IMG/VR virus record: IMGVR_UViG_2526164667_000035
Origin: a virus
Lineage: Duplodnaviria; Heunggongvirae; Uroviricota; Caudoviricetes
Length of the DNA stretch: 41,051 nt
Direction: 5' to 3' (one strand)
The notes beneath the pieces were generated by a model that made no database searches, was not told the origin of the DNA, and saw only the letters and a program-made list of their open reading frames with translations. This document shows positions 1,387-7,423 of the stretch, piece by piece. The position numbers were made by a program, and so were the translations under genes. How positions within the stretch are numbered: the stretch's first letter is position 1; the number at the start of each line of letters is the position of its first letter.

Positions 1387-2247
1387 TTATGCCGCCCTCA
1401 CGATGTAGTTGAATGCAATATTACGAGGTCTGTTTTCTGTCGCTGTAGGAACAACTCTTGAGACATCCAAATTAGCGTAAATATGACGATCTGTCATAGA
1501 AACTGATGACTTACCAGTAGATTCAGCTTTTATCACAACGGAATCATACATTCCCTCATCATTCCCAAAAAATGCACCAGAGCCATTGCCAAAAAAATAC
1601 AGTGCTGATATTTCATGCCTTGCACCAATTGTCCCCGTGATATTTCTGATTGCATCTCCCTGAGAGTTCAATATAGTTCGGCCCGAATCAACCCCACGCC
1701 CGTCATCCCAGCCGCGAATAAATTCACCGCGTAAATCAGGCAATTTATTTGTCGGGTAAGCCTTTGCCAGTTCCGGGTATTCTTCAGCAGAAAAAGCCGC
1801 ACCATTGCATTTCAGCCAGCCTGTTGGCGGAGTGGCTGAAGGCCACGGAACAGGCACCCCAACAGGTAATGCTGAGCCTTCTCCCAAACCAAGGTTTTCG
1901 AGAGCCGTTTTCACCGTGCCATCCGATTTGATATCGCCAAACGGATTCTTGCGGCTCAGGTATTCAACAGCAAACCCCGATCCCAGCAATTCAACAAAAC
2001 CGGGCAGATCACCATTATCAAGCACATCCCGTTGCGTTTTATCACTTACAAACTGGGCCAGAGCTGCAGCAATAAAGCTGGCCTGCCGAATAACCTTATT
2101 GACTTGCGCACTGGAGGCTTTCCCTGCTGTAAATCCGGATAAAAGCGCAGGCAACGCTTCCCATTCCTCCTGCGACATAACATTGGCATTTTTACCCGTT
2201 GCGAATGCTTTAAAGTCATTTTTTGCCATCAGAGTAATACTCCCCAT
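1387..2247 (-). CDS. Tail fibre protein (constant N-terminal part within the inverted repeat, variable C-terminal tip 1387..1877)
   Basis: 286-aa ORF last in the baseplate operon; C-terminal region ([31 protein letters not shown]...) resembles phage tail-collar / fibre tip domains; followed by tfa. Confidence 0.8.
1878..2163. repeat. Left copy of the inverted repeat, inside the 5' part of the tail fibre gene
   Basis: Perfect reverse-complement match to 1..286. Confidence 0.9.
1879..1904. other. Candidate DNA-invertase crossover site, left copy
   Basis: Reverse complement of the 260..285 site, located within the tail fibre coding sequence at the constant/variable junction (after GLGE). Confidence 0.6.
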
Positions 2248-2251
2248 GCCC

Positions 2252-2908
2252 CTACATCAAAACCACTGATGAATTCGTTATCCATATCAAAACCAAAAAT
2301 TTTGAACCTTCCGATGGGGTTTCCACCGAAGGTGTTTCAATGCCACCCGCCCACACCCCGGCGGCTTTTACTGTGAGATATCCCTGTTTAATTGCAGCAA
2401 TTAACTCACGCGATACATCTGAAATATCAGTATCAGGAAAGACCCAGACCGATATCGTCATGTCCTGGTTATCGACTATCTGCATTCGCAGCCTGGATCC
2501 TGCTGTTGCCGCGTCAAGAATTACCGGAAGCGAATCATTCCGTCCGTCCCAGTTATTAATCGCAATCTTCGCTTTAAGAATGACACGATAAGTTTCATCG
2601 CTGAGATACATGTATCCAGAATCAGGATCATATGGCCCCTGCCATACACCCTGATCATATCCAAGCCCGTCGGTATCCCAGCTGAAATAGACACCTGAAA
2701 TAGGCTGGCTGACAACACGGCTACGTCCGATCCACAATCCCAGAATGTCAAGTTGCACACCAACCGCAGAGTCAATATCAAATGCAGTAATCAGCCCTCT
2801 GGTGGCCGCCGCAACATCAATAAGCGGCCGGGTCATCAGATCAACATGTGCAAGAAATTTAGGTTTGGTGGCGTGGTAGTTCGTGATTAGTTCGGTGTAT
2901 TTGCTCAT
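2252..2908 (-). CDS. Baseplate/tail protein, Mu gp48 / YmfQ (DUF2313)-like
   Basis: 218-aa ORF between the baseplate J-like gene and the tail fibre, the position of Mu gp48; tight packing with neighbours. Confidence 0.55.
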
Positions 2909-4104
2909 GACTCCACCGTTATAACGATATTTTCCGGGGTACAGGACGCAGATTCGTTATATCTGATATCAATGTTTGATGATGACAAAGCCCCCGGGGA
3001 TTTCCCAATCGTCAGTTCCTGAATATCGTAATAGCGTGCATTCCCGCCACTCACCACGCCAAGATTCGCCGGTGAGTAAATGCGACTTAAAAGGACCGAA
3101 TCACCAATCATCAGACTATTGATATAGTCGGAAATAGCCTGCTGGATCTGCTGCCCTATCTGTGAGGTATAACCCGTAAAAACTTTTAATTTAATCCGGG
3201 CATAAACAGGCACATCACTGGAACGCGAGAATTTGATTACATGGGGATTGCCGTATTTATCCGGAACCGTAACGGATGTTGTACCGTGAGTGGCTGTCCC
3301 CTGGCCTTTATTTCCTCTGATAGCCTGAGCAATATCCGTTACATCACCGCCATCCACAATTACAGCAACAGAGTGTGGCGGTAACCCGTTACCGTCCTCC
3401 GAACCAGTATCGTTTTCATAGAGTTTGTGGCGGGTTACACCGGTAACATTAGAAACAGCACCATCCAGTGCTTCAAATGGGGTTATTGATGGCAACGCAA
3501 CACTTTGCGACTGGCGGATACGTAACTCAGCGTCAGTTTCTGCCGGAGTGCCCACAGTAGCCGCAGCAGGATTAGTTACCGAAACCCAGCCACGGGTTGG
3601 CGTATTAATTTCAGTGATAGTTCCAGCCAGCGCCGCCACTGCACCTCTGACGGAACATTTTGCGGTCACCATCACTGTACCATCCACGCCGACCACCACT
3701 GAAGCAGGCAAACGCCATATCACATTATTACTGTCTTTCACGCTGCCATTAATGATGGTTGTTCCGGCAGTTCCTGTAAGAAGCAAATCAACCGTAGAAT
3801 TCGTCGCGCCTTTACGTGAAATACCATTTATTTTCACGTTACTGGTCAATGCAGCCCCATAGCCGGTTGCCGGTGAAAAACAGTTGTAGACAGTTATCGC
3901 CATATTATTGGCATCATGAATCGCCAGCGCCATCAGAGCCACCATCTGGCCGTCTTTGCTGTCCGGTTCGAGGTAGGCATCACTGCCATAAATCTGCTGA
4001 AAATAGCTAATCAGGGTGCTGAGTATCGTCTGATAATCAGGCGCACTGATCCCCTCCGCGGTTACCTTTGCAGATAAACCGAGAGAATCAAGGTTCAGAG
4101 CCAT
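2905..4104 (-). CDS. Baseplate J-like protein (Mu gp47 / P2 J family)
   Basis: 399-aa ORF, 4-bp overlap with downstream gene, conserved position upstream of the fibre genes. Confidence 0.7.
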   Translation of the reverse strand: MALNLDSLGLSAKVTAEGISAPDYQTILSTLISYFQQIYGSDAYLEPDSKDGQMVALMALAIHDANNMAITVYNCFSPATGYGAALTSNVKINGISRKGATNSTVDLLLTGTAGTTIINGSVKDSNNVIWRLPASVVVGVDGTVMVTAKCSVRGAVAALAGTITEINTPTRGWVSVTNPAAATVGTPAETDAELRIRQSQSVALPSITPFEALDGAVSNVTGVTRHKLYENDTGSEDGNGLPPHSVAVIVDGGDVTDIAQAIRGNKGQGTATHGTTSVTVPDKYGNPHVIKFSRSSDVPVYARIKLKVFTGYTSQIGQQIQQAISDYINSLMIGDSVLLSRIYSPANLGVVSGGNARYYDIQELTIGKSPGALSSSNIDIRYNESASCTPENIVITVES

Positions 4105-4457
4105 TACGCCTCCGATGTAACAGTCGTTATTCCATAGAGAGTGTCGATTTCAGCGGAAAACATGACACGTCGGGTCGTGGTATCCACCGTCGTATTGAAA
4201 GAGAGGATTGATTTAACGCCCCGCGTTTCGAGGATGCGCTTACGGATCGCCAGGTTGTAGGTTTCCGGCTTCTGCTTACCGAGTACGGACTGGATCCACG
4301 GAGTCCCCTCGGTGGTGTCGAGAAACCATTGCCCATACCACAATTCGAATCGCGTTTTTACCGCCTGCGCCACGGCCTCCGGCGAGTTAATCAGCCAGGT
4401 GTCATCACCGCTGCCAAAGGTGTAATCGCCATCGGCGTCTTCACGTCTGTATCGCAT
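4104..4457 (-). CDS. Baseplate wedge protein (gp25 / GPW-like, Mu gp46 position)
   Basis: 117-aa ORF between spike-like and J-like genes; start overlaps upstream stop (ATGA). Confidence 0.55.
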   Translation of the reverse strand: MRYRREDADGDYTFGSGDDTWLINSPEAVAQAVKTRFELWYGQWFLDTTEGTPWIQSVLGKQKPETYNLAIRKRILETRGVKSILSFNTTVDTTTRRVMFSAEIDTLYGITTVTSEA

Positions 4458-5209
4458 CAGTTTACCCCATCGGTATTGCTTCCACCGCGCTGAACACCGC
4501 CATGAGTGTGCGTATCATCGATTGGCTTGCCGTTAGCCTTCACGCTACCCAAAAACTCAACAGCACCAGTGATTTTTGAAGCCACACCAGAAACAACAGA
4601 CCCCACCATGCCACCCATCCAGGTTAACAGGCCATGAATGGTTACTTTCTCAGAAAAATCAGCCAGGGGGGCAACCACATCAAGCCCCCCCGGAGCGACA
4701 ATTTTAATTTTCCTGGTATCAGGATTAAGCTCAAAATAGGTGCTGCCGTCGTCACTACGCAACTGTGTGGCACTGGTATTAATACCGCTAATCTTCCTAG
4801 CCTGCGACTGGGGACCGACAATACAAAACGCATCCGATAAATCATGCATTCTGTCATCAACAGGCTCCTGTATCCCGCCGCTCTGCCACCAGAAATCAAT
4901 ACAACGATCGGCAAAAACGACAAGACACTCATCCCCGGCTTTTACCGGAAAAGTCAACGTACAGCCTCCGCCGCGCGGGAATACCACTGGCACATCCGCC
5001 AGCAATGGGTAATTTTTGGTAATGCGGTTACCGTAGTTATCCTTTTCAACCGAACGGATAGCTGGCTGCACAACCGCCGTCACCGCGTCAGGAGCGAATG
5101 ACTGAATAATGCCAGGCAAGGCGACGCGGATCTGGTTCTTTGTTGTTTCCCGCTCGGACTTGAATGTTTCGGCAAGGTCACCGCTACGAGTCTGGTCTGA
5201 TATGGCCAT
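4457..5209 (-). CDS. Baseplate spike / assembly protein V-like (Mu gp45 position)
   Basis: Start placed at internal ATG (MAISDQ...) with AGGAG about 7 nt upstream; the longer ORF start would overlap the terminator hairpin. Confidence 0.6.
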   Translation of the reverse strand: MAISDQTRSGDLAETFKSERETTKNQIRVALPGIIQSFAPDAVTAVVQPAIRSVEKDNYGNRITKNYPLLADVPVVFPRGGGCTLTFPVKAGDECLVVFADRCIDFWWQSGGIQEPVDDRMHDLSDAFCIVGPQSQARKISGINTSATQLRSDDGSTYFELNPDTRKIKIVAPGGLDVVAPLADFSEKVTIHGLLTWMGGMVGSVVSGVASKITGAVEFLGSVKANGKPIDDTHTHGGVQRGGSNTDGVN

Positions 5210-5225
5210 TTGATAAACTCCTGAA

Positions 5226-5250
5226 AACAAAAAACCCGCCAAGTGGCGGG
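5226..5250 (-). terminator. Rho-independent terminator closing the AT-rich island
   Basis: On the - strand: CCCGCCACUUGGCGGG hairpin (6-bp GC stem, 4-nt loop) followed by UUUUUUGUUUU. Confidence 0.6.
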
Positions 5251-5271
5251 TCTACAGGAACAACTCTAAGT

Positions 5272-5442
5272 TTATTTTTTCTGTTTAAAATTGTCCAACT
5301 CAGGTTCTTTAACGCTTTCTGTCATGTAATCCAATCCATCAAAAGGTACTTCAAGCATTATACTGCTTTCATAATCAGCCATGGATTGCTCTGCTTGCGT
5401 TGGCTTACTTTGCTGTGAGTTGTCATTATTTGATGTTGTCAT
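5272..5442 (-). CDS. Small acidic hypothetical protein (56 aa), last gene of the AT-rich island
   Basis: ATG..TAA ORF below the ORF-track size cutoff (MTTSNNDNSQQSKPTQAEQSMADYESSIMLEVPFDGLDYMTESVKEPELDNFKQKK); 3 nt downstream of the preceding stop; weak SD. Confidence 0.35.
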   Translation of the reverse strand: MTTSNNDNSQQSKPTQAEQSMADYESSIMLEVPFDGLDYMTESVKEPELDNFKQKK

Positions 5443-5445
5443 CAA

Positions 5446-6001
5446 CTATGCCTTATTTATCAAAAGAAAAGTAACCGATAATATGAAAAAACCGAAAGAT
5501 AACGCAATTCCTTCAAAAAGATAACGAGCATAAACTGCCTTTTCTTTATGAAGACTTTCGATCAATTCAACAGCTTTACCATACTGAAACATATGGTATC
5601 TAAGCGTTTTAATTTTATCACCGTAAAGTAAAAAATCATGCTCTTCTTTTCGCTTATGAGTAGGCATTTTTGGTATATCTTTCAGTCCCCAAGTACGCCA
5701 TAGGAAAAAAAAAGCACATAACAATACAAACAAAGCACAGATATGCACAAAGTATAGATAATGTTAAAAACCAATTACTCTTTAGCCCACTTTTGAAATC
5801 AACAGTCCCAAATACAGCCAGTAGAGCAGAGGTTTCTACAGCTAAAATAGCAAGAAGGTAGTTAACTTTGTCCTCAAGACGACGATATGTTGATTTTGCT
5901 TCCTCATATCTATCTTTATAATATGACGAAATAAAATCAGCGCCTATAGTCTCAATTGCCTTTTGTTCTTCTGTTGTATCTATTGGCGAACGCTTGCTCA
6001 T
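5446..6001 (-). CDS. Hypothetical multi-pass membrane protein, split into two overlapping frames at a T9 homopolymer (frameshifted pseudogene or phase-variable gene)
   Basis: ORFs 5654..6001 and 5446..5748 overlap by 95 nt; both are hydrophobic across the overlap; a run of 9 T (- strand) at 5705..5713 sits at the junction; loss of one T would fuse them into about 184 aa. About 33% GC. Confidence 0.45.
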
Positions 6002-6008
6002 TTCTTAA

Positions 6009-6356
6009 TCAACCAACAACTTTCTTACACGGGAAAGAGCCAATAATTTTCGGAGCATCCATGCTGTTCTGCAACAACTGGACGTTCAGGAAACGCGTTT
6101 TAGTGCCCGGTCGATGGATATACTCGAACCCATAATTGTTGCCATCTTTGGCAGGCATCAGCTCCATTTTGATCTGCATGCCTGTACCGTCTTTACCCAA
6201 CATTTTTACTTTTTGGGACGTTACTGTTTCGCCATTGATTTTAAATAATGAGTCAGGGATCGCATCCATACGAAAGTTGCCGCATTGCATCGTTATGGTG
6301 TTTGCACTTACACCAACAGACACTAACGCCAGCAATGAAAATATCCATCGTTTCAT
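6009..6356 (-). CDS. Secreted/periplasmic hypothetical protein with Sec-type signal peptide (115 aa)
   Basis: Start at internal ATG (MKRWIFSLLALVSVGVSA-NT...) with GGAGAGG upstream; classic n-h-c signal peptide with AxA-like cleavage site; two Cys in mature part; lower GC than flanking tail genes. Confidence 0.55.
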   Translation of the reverse strand: MKRWIFSLLALVSVGVSANTITMQCGNFRMDAIPDSLFKINGETVTSQKVKMLGKDGTGMQIKMELMPAKDGNNYGFEYIHRPGTKTRFLNVQLLQNSMDAPKIIGSFPCKKVVG

Positions 6357-6358
6357 TT

Positions 6359-7423
6359 CTATAATCCTCTCCGCAAAGCAGTGCTGGATGGCATATCCTG
6401 CGCACCGCGCGCTTCGCACATCATATCCATGTACCACGCCTGGCCCCTTGTGTCGCCAGTGTACATAATCCCGCGCACAATATAAACGCCATCCGTTGCG
6501 ATGCTGGCAGGCTGCGCGGTGGTACCGCTGAGCGTGATATTTCCGTCCGTGTTCTGGTCGGTGATCTGCCCGCCGGCCATCGCGATATCGTTGTTCGACA
6601 GCGCGGTGCGGAATACTGAAGCCTGATCCAGCTGAATGAGCCCGTTAACCCGGATGTTCGGGTTAATCAGCGCGCGGACGTTTACGCCGTTGCCGATAGT
6701 CTGCTGTGGCATACCGATAAGCCCCGTGGCACTGTTGAGCACAATCGCGTCGTGAACATATTCGTTATTCGCTACCATCTGGCGCTGACCATCCACAAAC
6801 TGCCATGTTGCGCCACATTGTCCGGCCACGTTATCCATAAGATGACGTGTCATGCCGAATAGCACCTGGCCCCGGGGGAAAACGGTAGCAGGCATTTCAG
6901 GCGTCAGACCTTCAGTCGCGCCTTTGGCCTCGAAGTCTTTCATCAGCGCGCGATTCACGTCTGCGACCGTATAACCGGCCGCCAGCGTCTGCGAAGTTAT
7001 GCTGGTGGCAAAAGCCAGATCAGTATCTGCTGCCTGAATCAGGACGTAGGAATCAACCGGACTGTCTTTTCCTGTGACCGAGTAGCGAATTTCACCGCTG
7101 AAAATTAGTCCGTAGTTGCGGCCATCACTCTGGCCCACGTCCGCCGCGTCAACTTCCCGCACAGTCCCGACGTCGCTTGCCGACACCTCCGGCGCGATAC
7201 CGTCGTAACCCGCAATCAGACGCACTTTCGAAAATTCCTGCCCGGTGATTCGGTTCACAGTATCTGCCGAGAGGTTATAAATTTTGATAGTCCCTACCCG
7301 GGACGCACTGCTGATGTTGAACCAGTCGATCGTAAAGGTGACTTTAAAATCACTTAGCTCAATTCCCTGACCGTTCCCGTCCACAAGCTGCAGCTCGAAA
7401 TGTCTCATCCAGTTCTGTGACAT
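6359..7423 (-). CDS. Baseplate hub-like protein (Mu gp44 / P2 D-like position)
   Basis: 354-aa ORF downstream of tape measure and two small tail genes; assignment by size and synteny only. Confidence 0.5.
   Translation of the reverse strand: MSQNWMRHFELQLVDGNGQGIELSDFKVTFTIDWFNISSASRVGTIKIYNLSADTVNRITGQEFSKVRLIAGYDGIAPEVSASDVGTVREVDAADVGQSDGRNYGLIFSGEIRYSVTGKDSPVDSYVLIQAADTDLAFATSITSQTLAAGYTVADVNRALMKDFEAKGATEGLTPEMPATVFPRGQVLFGMTRHLMDNVAGQCGATWQFVDGQRQMVANNEYVHDAIVLNSATGLIGMPQQTIGNGVNVRALINPNIRVNGLIQLDQASVFRTALSNNDIAMAGGQITDQNTDGNITLSGTTAQPASIATDGVYIVRGIMYTGDTRGQAWYMDMMCEARGAQDMPSSTALRRGL

What the first reader, a model, noticed from the sequence alone, without database searches (positions are those of the whole stretch)
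5654..5748. T9 homopolymer at the junction of two overlapping membrane-protein ORFs
The two hydrophobic ORFs of the island overlap by 95 nt and a run of nine T (coding strand) lies in the overlap at 5705..5713. Removing one T joins them into a single protein of about 184 aa. Such tracts are slipped-strand mutation hotspots, so the gene may be phase-variable, a recent pseudogene, or a sequencing error at a homopolymer.
Basis: seen in the sequence. Interest (0 to 1): 0.5.

Follow-up and report, generated by a model that had tools for sequence, protein, structure and literature searches.

The report
Frameshifted prophage membrane gene at T-run
The two overlapping reading frames are one prophage membrane-protein gene split by one extra T in a run of eight, a copying slip that has recurred in related E. 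coli and Salmonella prophages; this is an ordinary mutational hotspot, with no sign of a purpose-built switch.

Summary
A T9 run (minus strand, 5705..5713) lies in the 95-nt overlap of ORFs 5654..6001 and 5446..5748, and deleting one T gives a 184-aa protein.

That 184-aa form is the normal gene. It matches PHROG 18554 end to end. Twenty of 21 complete E. coli genomes with the island appear to carry T8 with one intact CDS (six read directly). Orthologues of 36-60% identity in Salmonella, Klebsiella and Serratia are single uninterrupted genes in the same slot, between the tail hub and spike genes.

The run is unstable. Assemblies identical over 3.3 kb carry T8, T9 or T10. T7 and a second T9 occur on two other haplotypes. 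The window therefore holds a recent, recurrent slippage frameshift, and a one-off sequencing error is unlikely.

An evolved phase-variation switch is not supported. The run is what AT-rich Phe codons give by chance (P 0.57-0.74) and it is absent at this site in most orthologues.

The T9 allele should make a 115-aa truncated protein. Transcriptional slippage may give a minority of full-length product (inferred).

The gene's function is unknown. It is low-GC accessory cargo, paired with a small downstream protein, and weakly resembles PycTM, with no cyclase nearby. My guess is a prophage exclusion or defence membrane protein. Interest is modest.

The parts
5705..5713 (-). T9 homopolymer (wild-type length T8). 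It encodes the FFF at the cytoplasmic end of the second hydrophobic helix and is the site of the +1 insertion.
   Evidence: The alignment shows this is the only indel against 7 E. coli loci. T7 to T10 variants are seen.
5446..6001 (-). The whole frameshifted gene. With T8 it encodes a 184-aa protein with three hydrophobic helices (PHROG 18554), identical to P0024.
   Evidence: (E 7e-129, profile positions 1-184 of 184), (invariant residues on both sides of the run; AF2 helices 9-66, 77-104, 118-126, 129-183; hydrophobic segments 46-69, 75-106, 160-184).
5654..6001 (-). N-terminal ORF as it reads in the window: 115 aa, made of about 99 native residues plus a 16-residue out-of-frame tail (PMAYLGTERYTKNAYS). 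It equals public protein P0037.
5446..5748 (-). C-terminal remnant frame: 100 aa from a GTG, or 73 aa from the ATG at 5667 as annotated in RefSeq. It holds the conserved cytoplasmic segment and the last helix. No Shine-Dalgarno is evident before either start.
   Evidence: The absence of a ribosome-binding site was read directly from the sequence.
5272..5442 (-). Small acidic 56-aa partner gene (PHROG 18231), starting 3 nt after the stop of the membrane-protein gene. It is conserved downstream of every close orthologue.
6009..6356 (-). Upstream 115-aa gene with an N-terminal signal-peptide-like segment (STY1065/STY2022 family, PHROG 3443). It is the first gene of the low-GC cassette, and this position is variable in other genera.
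5232..5253 (-). Intrinsic-terminator-like hairpin plus T-run, between the cassette and the spike gene.
   Evidence: and the sequence.
5250..6050 (.). Low-GC stretch (about 33-35% against about 50-58% in the flanking tail genes). This is accessory cargo in the slot between the hub and spike genes.
   Evidence: One search shows a related prophage with different cargo in the same slot.

Best explanation
The two ORFs are the halves of a single accessory prophage gene. The gene encodes a 184-aa inner-membrane protein with three hydrophobic helices. It sits in a low-GC cargo cassette (secreted 115-aa protein, membrane protein, small 56-aa acidic protein, terminator) between the tail hub and spike genes of a contractile-tailed E. 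coli prophage.

The functional allele has T8 (TTT TTT TTC, Phe-Phe-Phe). In this window, replication slippage has added one T. Translation therefore leaves the frame after residue 99 and stops after 16 foreign residues. The product is a 115-aa, two-helix fragment that lacks the conserved cytoplasmic segment and the last helix.

The event is recent: the flanks are identical to those of T8 siblings. It is also recurrent: T7, T9 and T10 occur on several haplotypes. The run thus behaves as a mutational on/off hotspot.

The run itself is an incidental product of AT-rich Phe codons. I found no evidence that it is an evolved contingency tract or a programmed recoding site.

Two further steps are inferred and not shown. 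First, the T9 allele is largely loss-of-function but leaky, because E. coli RNA polymerase slips on T runs of this length and some transcripts would be restored to U8. Second, the intact protein acts at the inner membrane of the lysogen, with its small partner, as an exclusion or abortive-defence type function.
For: - **Single gene.** The T8 product matches PHROG 18554 over its full length. Of 21 complete E. coli genomes with the island, 20 give a 770-nt match with three CDSs listed under it; six of these were read and carry T8, and their annotation shows one 184-aa CDS. Orthologues of 36-60% identity are single 175-183-aa genes with invariant residues on both sides of the run. They always lie in the same hub-to-spike slot.
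- **Slippage.** The only indel against 7 loci is at the run. L022 (T8), L008 (T9) and L021 (T10) have zero differences over 3.3 kb apart from the run. T7 loci are 6-9 differences from a T8 genome. The T9 of strain 2000-3039 is 0-1 differences from T8 genomes of another haplotype. Public proteins correspond to T7 (105 aa), T9 (115 aa; 5 + 12 contigs) and T10 (106 aa; 69 contigs), against at least 1,290 contigs with the intact form among the members listed.
- **Incidental run.** Synonymous resampling gives P(run of 8 or more) = 0.57-0.74 for this gene. The Salmonella, Klebsiella and metagenome orthologues read CFYYLW (T5) at this site.
- **Accessory cargo.** GC is about 34%. A terminator follows the cassette. 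A sister prophage carries other genes in the slot. The prophage has a separate holin/endolysin cassette.
- **Leakiness.** E. coli RNA polymerase rescues 5-10% of expression at T7/T8 runs (PMC6260861), and 9A/9T is the typical slippage-prone length in bacteria (PMC1088944).
- **Function lead.** PADLOC PycTM profiles hit 14 of 20 family members, best E 1.6e-5.
Against: - No read-level data were available, so a homopolymer miscall in any single assembly cannot be excluded.
- Contig counts are not independent isolates. The 69 T10 contigs could come from one heavily sampled clone.
- On the window's own haplotype, about one third of contigs are frameshifted (81 against 165). That is high for neutral decay and could mean selection for the off state or fast switching.
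- The functional inference is weak. There is no Pfam hit. The PycTM match for this protein is E about 1e-3. No cyclase lies nearby. Fold searches returned only generic helical bundles.
- No promoter for lysogenic expression was found.
Confidence: 0.8

Rival explanations
1. This is an evolved phase-variable (contingency) gene. The T run is kept so that lysogen populations switch a costly or toxic membrane protein on and off reversibly, at high frequency.
For: T7, T8, T9 and T10 occur in otherwise identical or near-identical prophages and on at least 3 haplotypes. About a third of contigs on the window's haplotype are off. Four of five divergent alleles carry some A/T run of 8 or more bases, and Serratia has T8 at the same site.
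Against: The run is expected from the protein sequence and codon usage (P 0.4-0.74 per allele). It is replaced by T5 (TGTTTTTATTAT) in the Salmonella, Klebsiella and metagenome orthologues. Runs in other alleles lie at unrelated positions. No reversion has been demonstrated. From general knowledge, E. coli has active mismatch repair and short A/T runs switch far more slowly than classical poly-G/C contingency tracts. At least 93% of the listed contigs are T8 overall.
Confidence: 0.15
2. The extra T is a sequencing or assembly error at a homopolymer, and the real genome has T8.
For: Homopolymers are the classic site of indel miscalls. Only one base is involved. No reads could be inspected.
Against: The identical 115-aa ORF is called on 12 contigs, including an assembly that differs from the window by 1 base in 6,348 and so appears to be independent. 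A second T9 occurs on another haplotype in a complete RefSeq genome. T10 is seen on 69-84 contigs or index blocks.
Confidence: 0.05
3. This is a programmed recoding site. The T9 arrangement is used, as in Shigella mxiE, to make both a short and a long product by transcriptional slippage or +1 ribosomal frameshifting on UUU-C.
For: A T9 lies in the overlap of two ORFs, the same layout as mxiE (PMC1088944). E. coli RNA polymerase slips on T runs of 7 or more. tRNA-Phe could re-pair from UUU to UUC in the +1 frame (inference).
Against: The frameshift-requiring layout is the rare state: 1 of 21 complete genomes, and at most about 7% of listed contigs. Orthologues need no frameshift and most have no run. 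T7 and T10 alleles need a different correction, so no single programmed event fits them all.
Confidence: 0.07
4. These are two genuine, separately translated small membrane-protein genes.
For: RefSeq annotates two CDSs in strain 2000-3039, and both frames are open.
Against: Every split form is nearly identical to an intact allele. No homologue has separately conserved genes. No ribosome-binding site precedes the downstream start. Residues are conserved continuously across the junction.
Confidence: 0.02

Closest known systems
Shigella flexneri mxiE (T9 run joining mxiEa and mxiEb by transcriptional slippage) and Citrobacter rodentium tssM1 (A11 run)
   Same: An A/T homopolymer of at least 9 bases lies at the junction of two overlapping frames of one protein, in an enterobacterium. 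RNA polymerase slippage at such runs can restore the long product (PMC1088944; PMC4256274).
   Different: In mxiE and tssM1 the out-of-frame layout is the conserved, functional state. Here the in-frame T8 is the norm and T9 is a rare recent mutation. Rescue in this window would need a one-base deletion or a two-base insertion in the RNA. No RNA data exist.
Homopolymeric-tract contingency loci (slipped-strand phase variation in Haemophilus, Neisseria, Campylobacter)
   Same: A run inside a coding region toggles the frame, and length polymorphism is seen among near-identical strains.
   Different: The run is short, A/T, predicted by codon usage, and not conserved among orthologues. Switching rate and reversibility are unmeasured. 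From general knowledge, the host has mismatch repair.
HK97 gp15 moron (inner-membrane superinfection-exclusion protein encoded inside the tail operon)
   Same: Low-GC accessory gene with a terminator inserted among tail genes of an E. coli prophage and encoding a small inner-membrane protein (PMC3594210).
   Different: There is no sequence relationship. Here the unit is a three-gene cassette, no promoter was detected, and exclusion activity is untested.
PycTM, the transmembrane effector of Pycsar (and 2TM effectors of CBASS)
   Same: Similar size, and weak profile similarity over the N-terminal helix and first two hydrophobic helices. PADLOC PycTM gives E 1.3e-3 for this protein, best E 1.6e-5 in the family, and hits 14 of 20 members.
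   Different: No pyrimidine cyclase is present in any of the contexts examined. No Pfam hit was found in my own scan. A small downstream partner protein is present instead.
PHROG 18554 (phage protein family of unknown function)
   Same: The T8 product matches the full length of the profile, 1-184 of 184, at E 7e-129.
   Different: The window's copy is frameshifted. The family has no assigned function.

Membership tests
Slipped-strand phase-variable (contingency) gene | A homopolymer inside the coding region whose +/-1 change toggles the reading frame | tested here: met
   T8 gives 184 aa, T9 gives 115 aa, T7 and T10 give 105 and 106 aa.
Slipped-strand phase-variable (contingency) gene | Run-length polymorphism among closely related strains | tested here: met
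   T8, T9 and T10 loci have 0 other differences over 3.3 kb. T7 and a second T9 lie on other haplotypes.
Slipped-strand phase-variable (contingency) gene | The run is maintained beyond what composition predicts and is conserved among orthologues | tested here: not met
   P(run of 8 or more) is 0.57-0.74 from codon usage; the site reads T5 in the Salmonella, Klebsiella and metagenome alleles, and only Serratia has T8 there.
Slipped-strand phase-variable (contingency) gene | Reversible, high-frequency switching within a clonal population | not testable with these tools
   This needs read-level counts or fluctuation assays.
Programmed transcriptional-slippage gene (mxiE type) | An A/T run of at least 9 bases in the overlap of two ORFs of one protein | tested here: met
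Programmed transcriptional-slippage gene (mxiE type) | The out-of-frame layout is the conserved state among homologues | tested here: not met
   the in-frame single gene is the norm.
Programmed transcriptional-slippage gene (mxiE type) | Heterogeneous mRNA run length that yields the long product | not testable with these tools
   Only an analogy is available: 5-10% rescue at T7/T8 by E. coli RNA polymerase.
PycTM (Pycsar effector) | Significant match to PycTM profiles | tested here: inconclusive
   PADLOC gives E 1.3e-3 for this protein and a best E of 1.6e-5 in the family. Pfam shows no hit at E of 1 or less. Four homologues (P0009, P0013, P0015, P0016) carry a precomputed PF18967 flag; that this accession is the PycTM/DUF5706 family is my recollection, not checked here.
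PycTM (Pycsar effector) | An adjacent pyrimidine cyclase (PycC) | tested here: not met
   No cyclase lies in the window's cassette or in the contexts of close and remote relatives.
PycTM (Pycsar effector) | Activation by cyclic-nucleotide binding | not testable with these tools
   This requires biochemistry.
Moron (accessory transcription unit in a phage operon) | Present in some but not all closely related phages at the same site | tested here: met
   238 genomes have the tail region; only 21 have this cassette; one such genome carries other cargo in the slot.
Moron (accessory transcription unit in a phage operon) | Base composition that differs from the flanking genes | tested here: met
   33-35% GC against about 50-58%.
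Moron (accessory transcription unit in a phage operon) | Its own terminator | tested here: met
   a hairpin with a T-run at 5253..5232(-). This is a consensus match only.
Moron (accessory transcription unit in a phage operon) | Its own promoter, active in the lysogen | tested here: inconclusive
   One search found no sigma-70-like site upstream of the cassette on the minus strand. Expression was not tested.
PHROG 18554 | A full-length profile match | tested here: met
   E 7.3e-129, positions 1-184 of 184, for the T8 reading.

The most novel reading that the evidence does not exclude
The membrane protein and its small partner form an uncharacterised, cyclase-less, PycTM-like toxic or defence module carried as cargo on prophages, Tn7-like transposons and defence-type islands. 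In E. coli and Salmonella prophages the T run would act as a working on/off switch, with the off state made leaky by transcriptional slippage, letting lysogen lineages shed and regain a costly membrane effector.
Probability: 0.12. Interest if true: 0.55.

Novelty: new member of a known kind. Interest (0 to 1): 0.3.

Why it matters
For annotation, the two 'hypothetical proteins' should be merged and flagged as one frameshifted gene. The 115-, 106-, 105- and 73-aa database entries are fragments of a single family.

For biology, this is a clean natural example of an A/T run generating T7 to T10 alleles in otherwise identical prophages. It could be used to measure slippage rates, or to ask whether losing this membrane protein is selected in lysogens.

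The gene and its small partner are conserved cargo on several kinds of mobile element and have no known function. The intact and frameshifted natural alleles provide ready-made isogenic material for testing a role in phage exclusion or toxicity.

Tried and rejected
- **Isolated phages.** DNA and protein searches of the INPHARED phage collection found no match. The family is known only from prophages and the PHROG set.
- **Family libraries.** Pfam and NCBIfam gave nothing above noise.
- **RNA.** An Rfam scan of 5000..6600 gave only sub-threshold matches at the terminator.
- **Pattern scans across the run.** The species-representative genomes gave 0 hits. The JGI metagenomes gave 1 hit, with T8. 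Neither helped with allele frequency.
- **Lysis function.** Rejected because the prophage has a separate holin, endolysin and putative spanin cassette.
- **Selection for the run across alleles.** Rejected after the codon-resampling test.
- **Cyclase partner.** Looked for in the contexts of remote relatives and found none.

Full report
**1. Observation**

The + strand carries A9 at 5705..5713, which is T9 on the coding minus strand. On the minus strand, ORF 5654..6001 (115 aa, ATG) and ORF 5446..5748 (100 aa from a GTG) overlap by 95 nt. Editing the run in silico gives these products:

| Run length | Product |
|---|---|
| T7 | 105 aa |
| T8 | 184 aa |
| T9 | 115 aa |
| T10 | 106 aa |
| T11 | 185 aa |

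It is the only homopolymer of 8 or more bases in the window. A 9-mer run as such is not improbable: 55 of 100 shuffles of the window contain one.

**2. Setting**

The window is essentially a whole prophage of about 40 kb. It has a contractile tail module, namely tape measure, Dit-like protein, plug, 354-aa hub, spike, sheath initiator and baseplate J. It also has a separate holin and endolysin cassette.

Between the hub and spike genes lies a stretch of 33-35% GC, against about 50-58% around it. This stretch holds three minus-strand genes:
- a 115-aa protein with an N-terminal signal-peptide-like segment (STY1065/STY2022 family, PHROG 3443);
- the split membrane-protein gene;
- a 56-aa acidic protein (PHROG 18231), starting 3 nt after the membrane gene's stop.

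A terminator-like hairpin follows at 5253..5232. A sister prophage with the same tail genes carries different cargo in this slot, a 113-aa protein and a DUF4282 protein. About 238 complete E. coli genomes have the tail region, but only 21 have this cassette. The cassette is therefore accessory, moron-like cargo. It matches the description of morons in PMC3594210, except that no promoter was detected.

**3. One gene, not two**

- The T8 reading matches PHROG 18554 from residue 1 to 184 at E 7e-129.
- Of the 21 complete E. coli genomes with the cassette, 20 give a 770-nt match with three CDSs listed under it. Six of these were fetched: all carry T8, and their annotation shows a single 184-aa CDS. 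One genome (strain 2000-3039) has 771 nt, T9 and two CDSs.
- Orthologues at 36-60% identity are single uninterrupted genes of 175-183 aa in the same slot, each followed by a 52-57-aa gene. They come from Salmonella enterica, Klebsiella aerogenes, Serratia and metagenomes.
- Their alignment has invariant residues on both sides of the run, for example C89, L100, W104, L106, P110, M112, P113, Y140 and K154.
- A profile search of 1.8 billion representatives found only full-length relatives or obvious fragments. No lineage has two separately conserved genes.
- Neither candidate start of the downstream frame has a visible Shine-Dalgarno sequence (read).

**4. The run is unstable**

In an alignment of 3.77 kb with seven E. 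coli loci, the only indel is at the run.

The exact 115-aa ORF of the window is called on 12 public contigs. One of them (GCA_026679655.1) differs from the window by a single base in 6,348, so it appears to be an independent assembly of a near-identical prophage.

Over 3.3 kb, L022 (T8), L008 (T9) and L021 (T10) have no difference other than the run. Three T7 loci sit on another haplotype, 6-9 differences from the T8 genome of O55:H7 CB9615. The T9 of strain 2000-3039 sits on a third haplotype, 0-1 differences from T8 genomes such as O103:H2 12009. At least four independent slippage events are therefore visible.

Public protein clusters tell the same story:

| Run state | Product | Contigs |
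|---|---|---|
| T8 | 184 aa (185 aa for P0029) | at least about 1,290 among the listed members |
| T9 | 115 aa | 5 + 12 |
| T10 | 106 aa | 69 (plus a Salmonella-type 146-aa variant) |
| T7 | 105 aa | 1 + 2 (plus a 145-aa variant) |

On the window's own protein haplotype (P...T), the counts are 165 intact against about 81 frameshifted contigs. These are contig counts, not independent isolates, and only part of the cluster was listed, so they are rough.

**5. Evolved switch or incidental run?**

T8 is TTT TTT TT(C), encoding Phe-Phe-Phe at the cytoplasmic end of the second hydrophobic helix. Resampling or permuting synonymous codons with the family's own usage (TTT 51: TTC 10) gives a run of 8 or more in 57-74% of trials for this gene, and in 22-64% for the other alleles.

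At the homologous site, the Salmonella, Klebsiella and metagenome alleles read CFYYLW (TGTTTTTATTAT, T5). Only the Serratia allele has T8 there. The other alleles have their own runs at unrelated places: Salmonella T8 in the last helix, and Klebsiella A9 at His-Lys-Lys-Lys.

I conclude that the run is a by-product of an AT-rich, Phe/Lys-rich gene. It makes the gene mutationally fragile. There is no evidence that it is kept as a contingency tract or as a recoding signal.

**6. Consequence of T9**

What the sequence shows: the product keeps residues 1-99 (the N-terminal helix and two hydrophobic helices), gains 16 foreign residues, and loses the conserved positively charged segment 101-160 and the third hydrophobic helix. 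The downstream frame is still identical to the intact allele P0024, so the lesion is recent.

What is inferred:
- Loss of function is likely.
- The off state may be leaky. In reporter assays, E. coli RNA polymerase rescued 5-10% of expression at T7/T8 runs, including by deletion (PMC6260861). 9A/9T is the length at which slippage becomes evident in many bacteria, as used by Shigella mxiE (PMC1088944) and, with A11, by Citrobacter tssM1 (PMC4256274).
- For T9, restoration needs U8 or U11 in the RNA. A +1 ribosomal shift from UUU to UUC is also conceivable. None of this could be tested here.

**7. What the gene does**

The function is unknown.
- The AF2 model (pLDDT 77) is all-helical, with helices 9-66, 77-104, 118-126 and 129-183. 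Hydropathy gives three hydrophobic segments, and the charge distribution suggests N-terminus in, C-terminus out.
- Fold searches were uninformative. Pfam and NCBIfam gave nothing.
- The only recurring lead is weak similarity to PADLOC PycTM profiles: E 1.3e-3 for this protein, and 14 of 20 family members hit with a best E of 1.6e-5. Seven of 30 remote relatives also hit, and those relatives are linked to the family at 99.8% hhalign probability.
- No cyclase lies next to any member examined. The contexts are prophage cargo slots, the cargo end of a Tn7-like transposon, a locus with DUF4760 and a UvrD-like helicase, and a short contig next to an Acb2/Tad1-hairpin protein.
- A small downstream ORF accompanies the gene nearly everywhere. 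In one remote relative, a similar segment is fused to its C-terminus.

My working guess, at roughly 0.3-0.4 confidence, is a two-protein inner-membrane module that benefits the lysogen by exclusion or abortive defence. By architecture it resembles the HK97 gp15 moron. Membership in PycTM is not established, and one defining feature (the adjacent cyclase) is not met.

**8. Verdict**

One gene is split by a +1 slip in a T8 run, and the run is demonstrably polymorphic (T7 to T10) in nature. The best description is a recent, recurrent frameshift at an incidental homopolymer hotspot in an accessory prophage gene. The kind is known, so I class it as a new member of a known kind. Interest is modest at about 0.3. 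The more novel reading is a working, leaky on/off switch on a new cyclase-less PycTM-like defence module. It is not excluded, and I give it about 0.12.

Noticed in passing
window 5250..6360; L030 4996..5630; L013 3098..3988; L015 3147..3821: The slot between the tail hub gene and the spike gene is a cargo hotspot. A sister E. coli prophage carries a 113-aa protein plus a DUF4282 protein there instead. In Klebsiella and Serratia prophages, the gene upstream of the membrane protein is replaced by unrelated 296-aa or 224-aa genes.
   Followed up: partly
window 5272..5442(-); L019 4521..4637; L031 4540..4701; L032 857..1594: The membrane protein is almost always followed by a small ORF of 38-57 aa, with the motif VPFGxLxVxTES in close relatives. 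In the remote relative P0054 (245 aa), a similar segment (RPPKVSGPDLVVSTSS) is fused to the C-terminus. This suggests the two proteins work together.
   Followed up: partly
L031 (Tn7-like TnsB/TnsC/TniQ next to the pair); L019 (DUF4760, UvrD-like); L032 241..732 (Acb2_Tad1_hairpin protein): Remote relatives of the family sit in cargo of other mobile or defence-type contexts. One lies beside a protein with an Acb2/Tad1 sponge-like hairpin domain. No cyclase appears in any context.
   Followed up: no
L013 4445..4453 (A9); L009 4485..4492 (T8); L015 4262..4269 (T8) and 4405..4412 (A8): Divergent alleles of the same gene carry their own long A/T runs at other codon positions (Lys-Lys-Lys, Phe-Phe). 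These may be further frameshift hotspots. Their polymorphism was not examined.
   Followed up: no
window about 5965..5973(-), protein residues 11-12; public protein P0029: A 185-aa variant on 10 contigs has an extra Glu (TTEEQ becomes TTEEEQ). This is an in-frame expansion of a short GAA repeat near the 5' end of the same gene.
   Followed up: no
public proteins P0044 (146 aa) and P0049 (145 aa), Salmonella-type alleles: T10 and T7 alleles in which the first stop of the shifted frame is itself mutated (GD* becomes GGL...). The out-of-frame tail therefore runs on for about 40 more residues.
   Followed up: no
window 4685..4691: A C7 run in the spike gene is created by two substitutions specific to the window's lineage; all seven compared E. 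coli loci have A at 4685 and 4688. The gene remains in frame.
   Followed up: no
L009 1..3994: In one Salmonella genome, the integrase and RecT region lies about 1.7 kb from the 115-aa cassette gene, with no hub, plug or tape-measure genes called in between. This looks like a prophage with an internal deletion.
   Followed up: no
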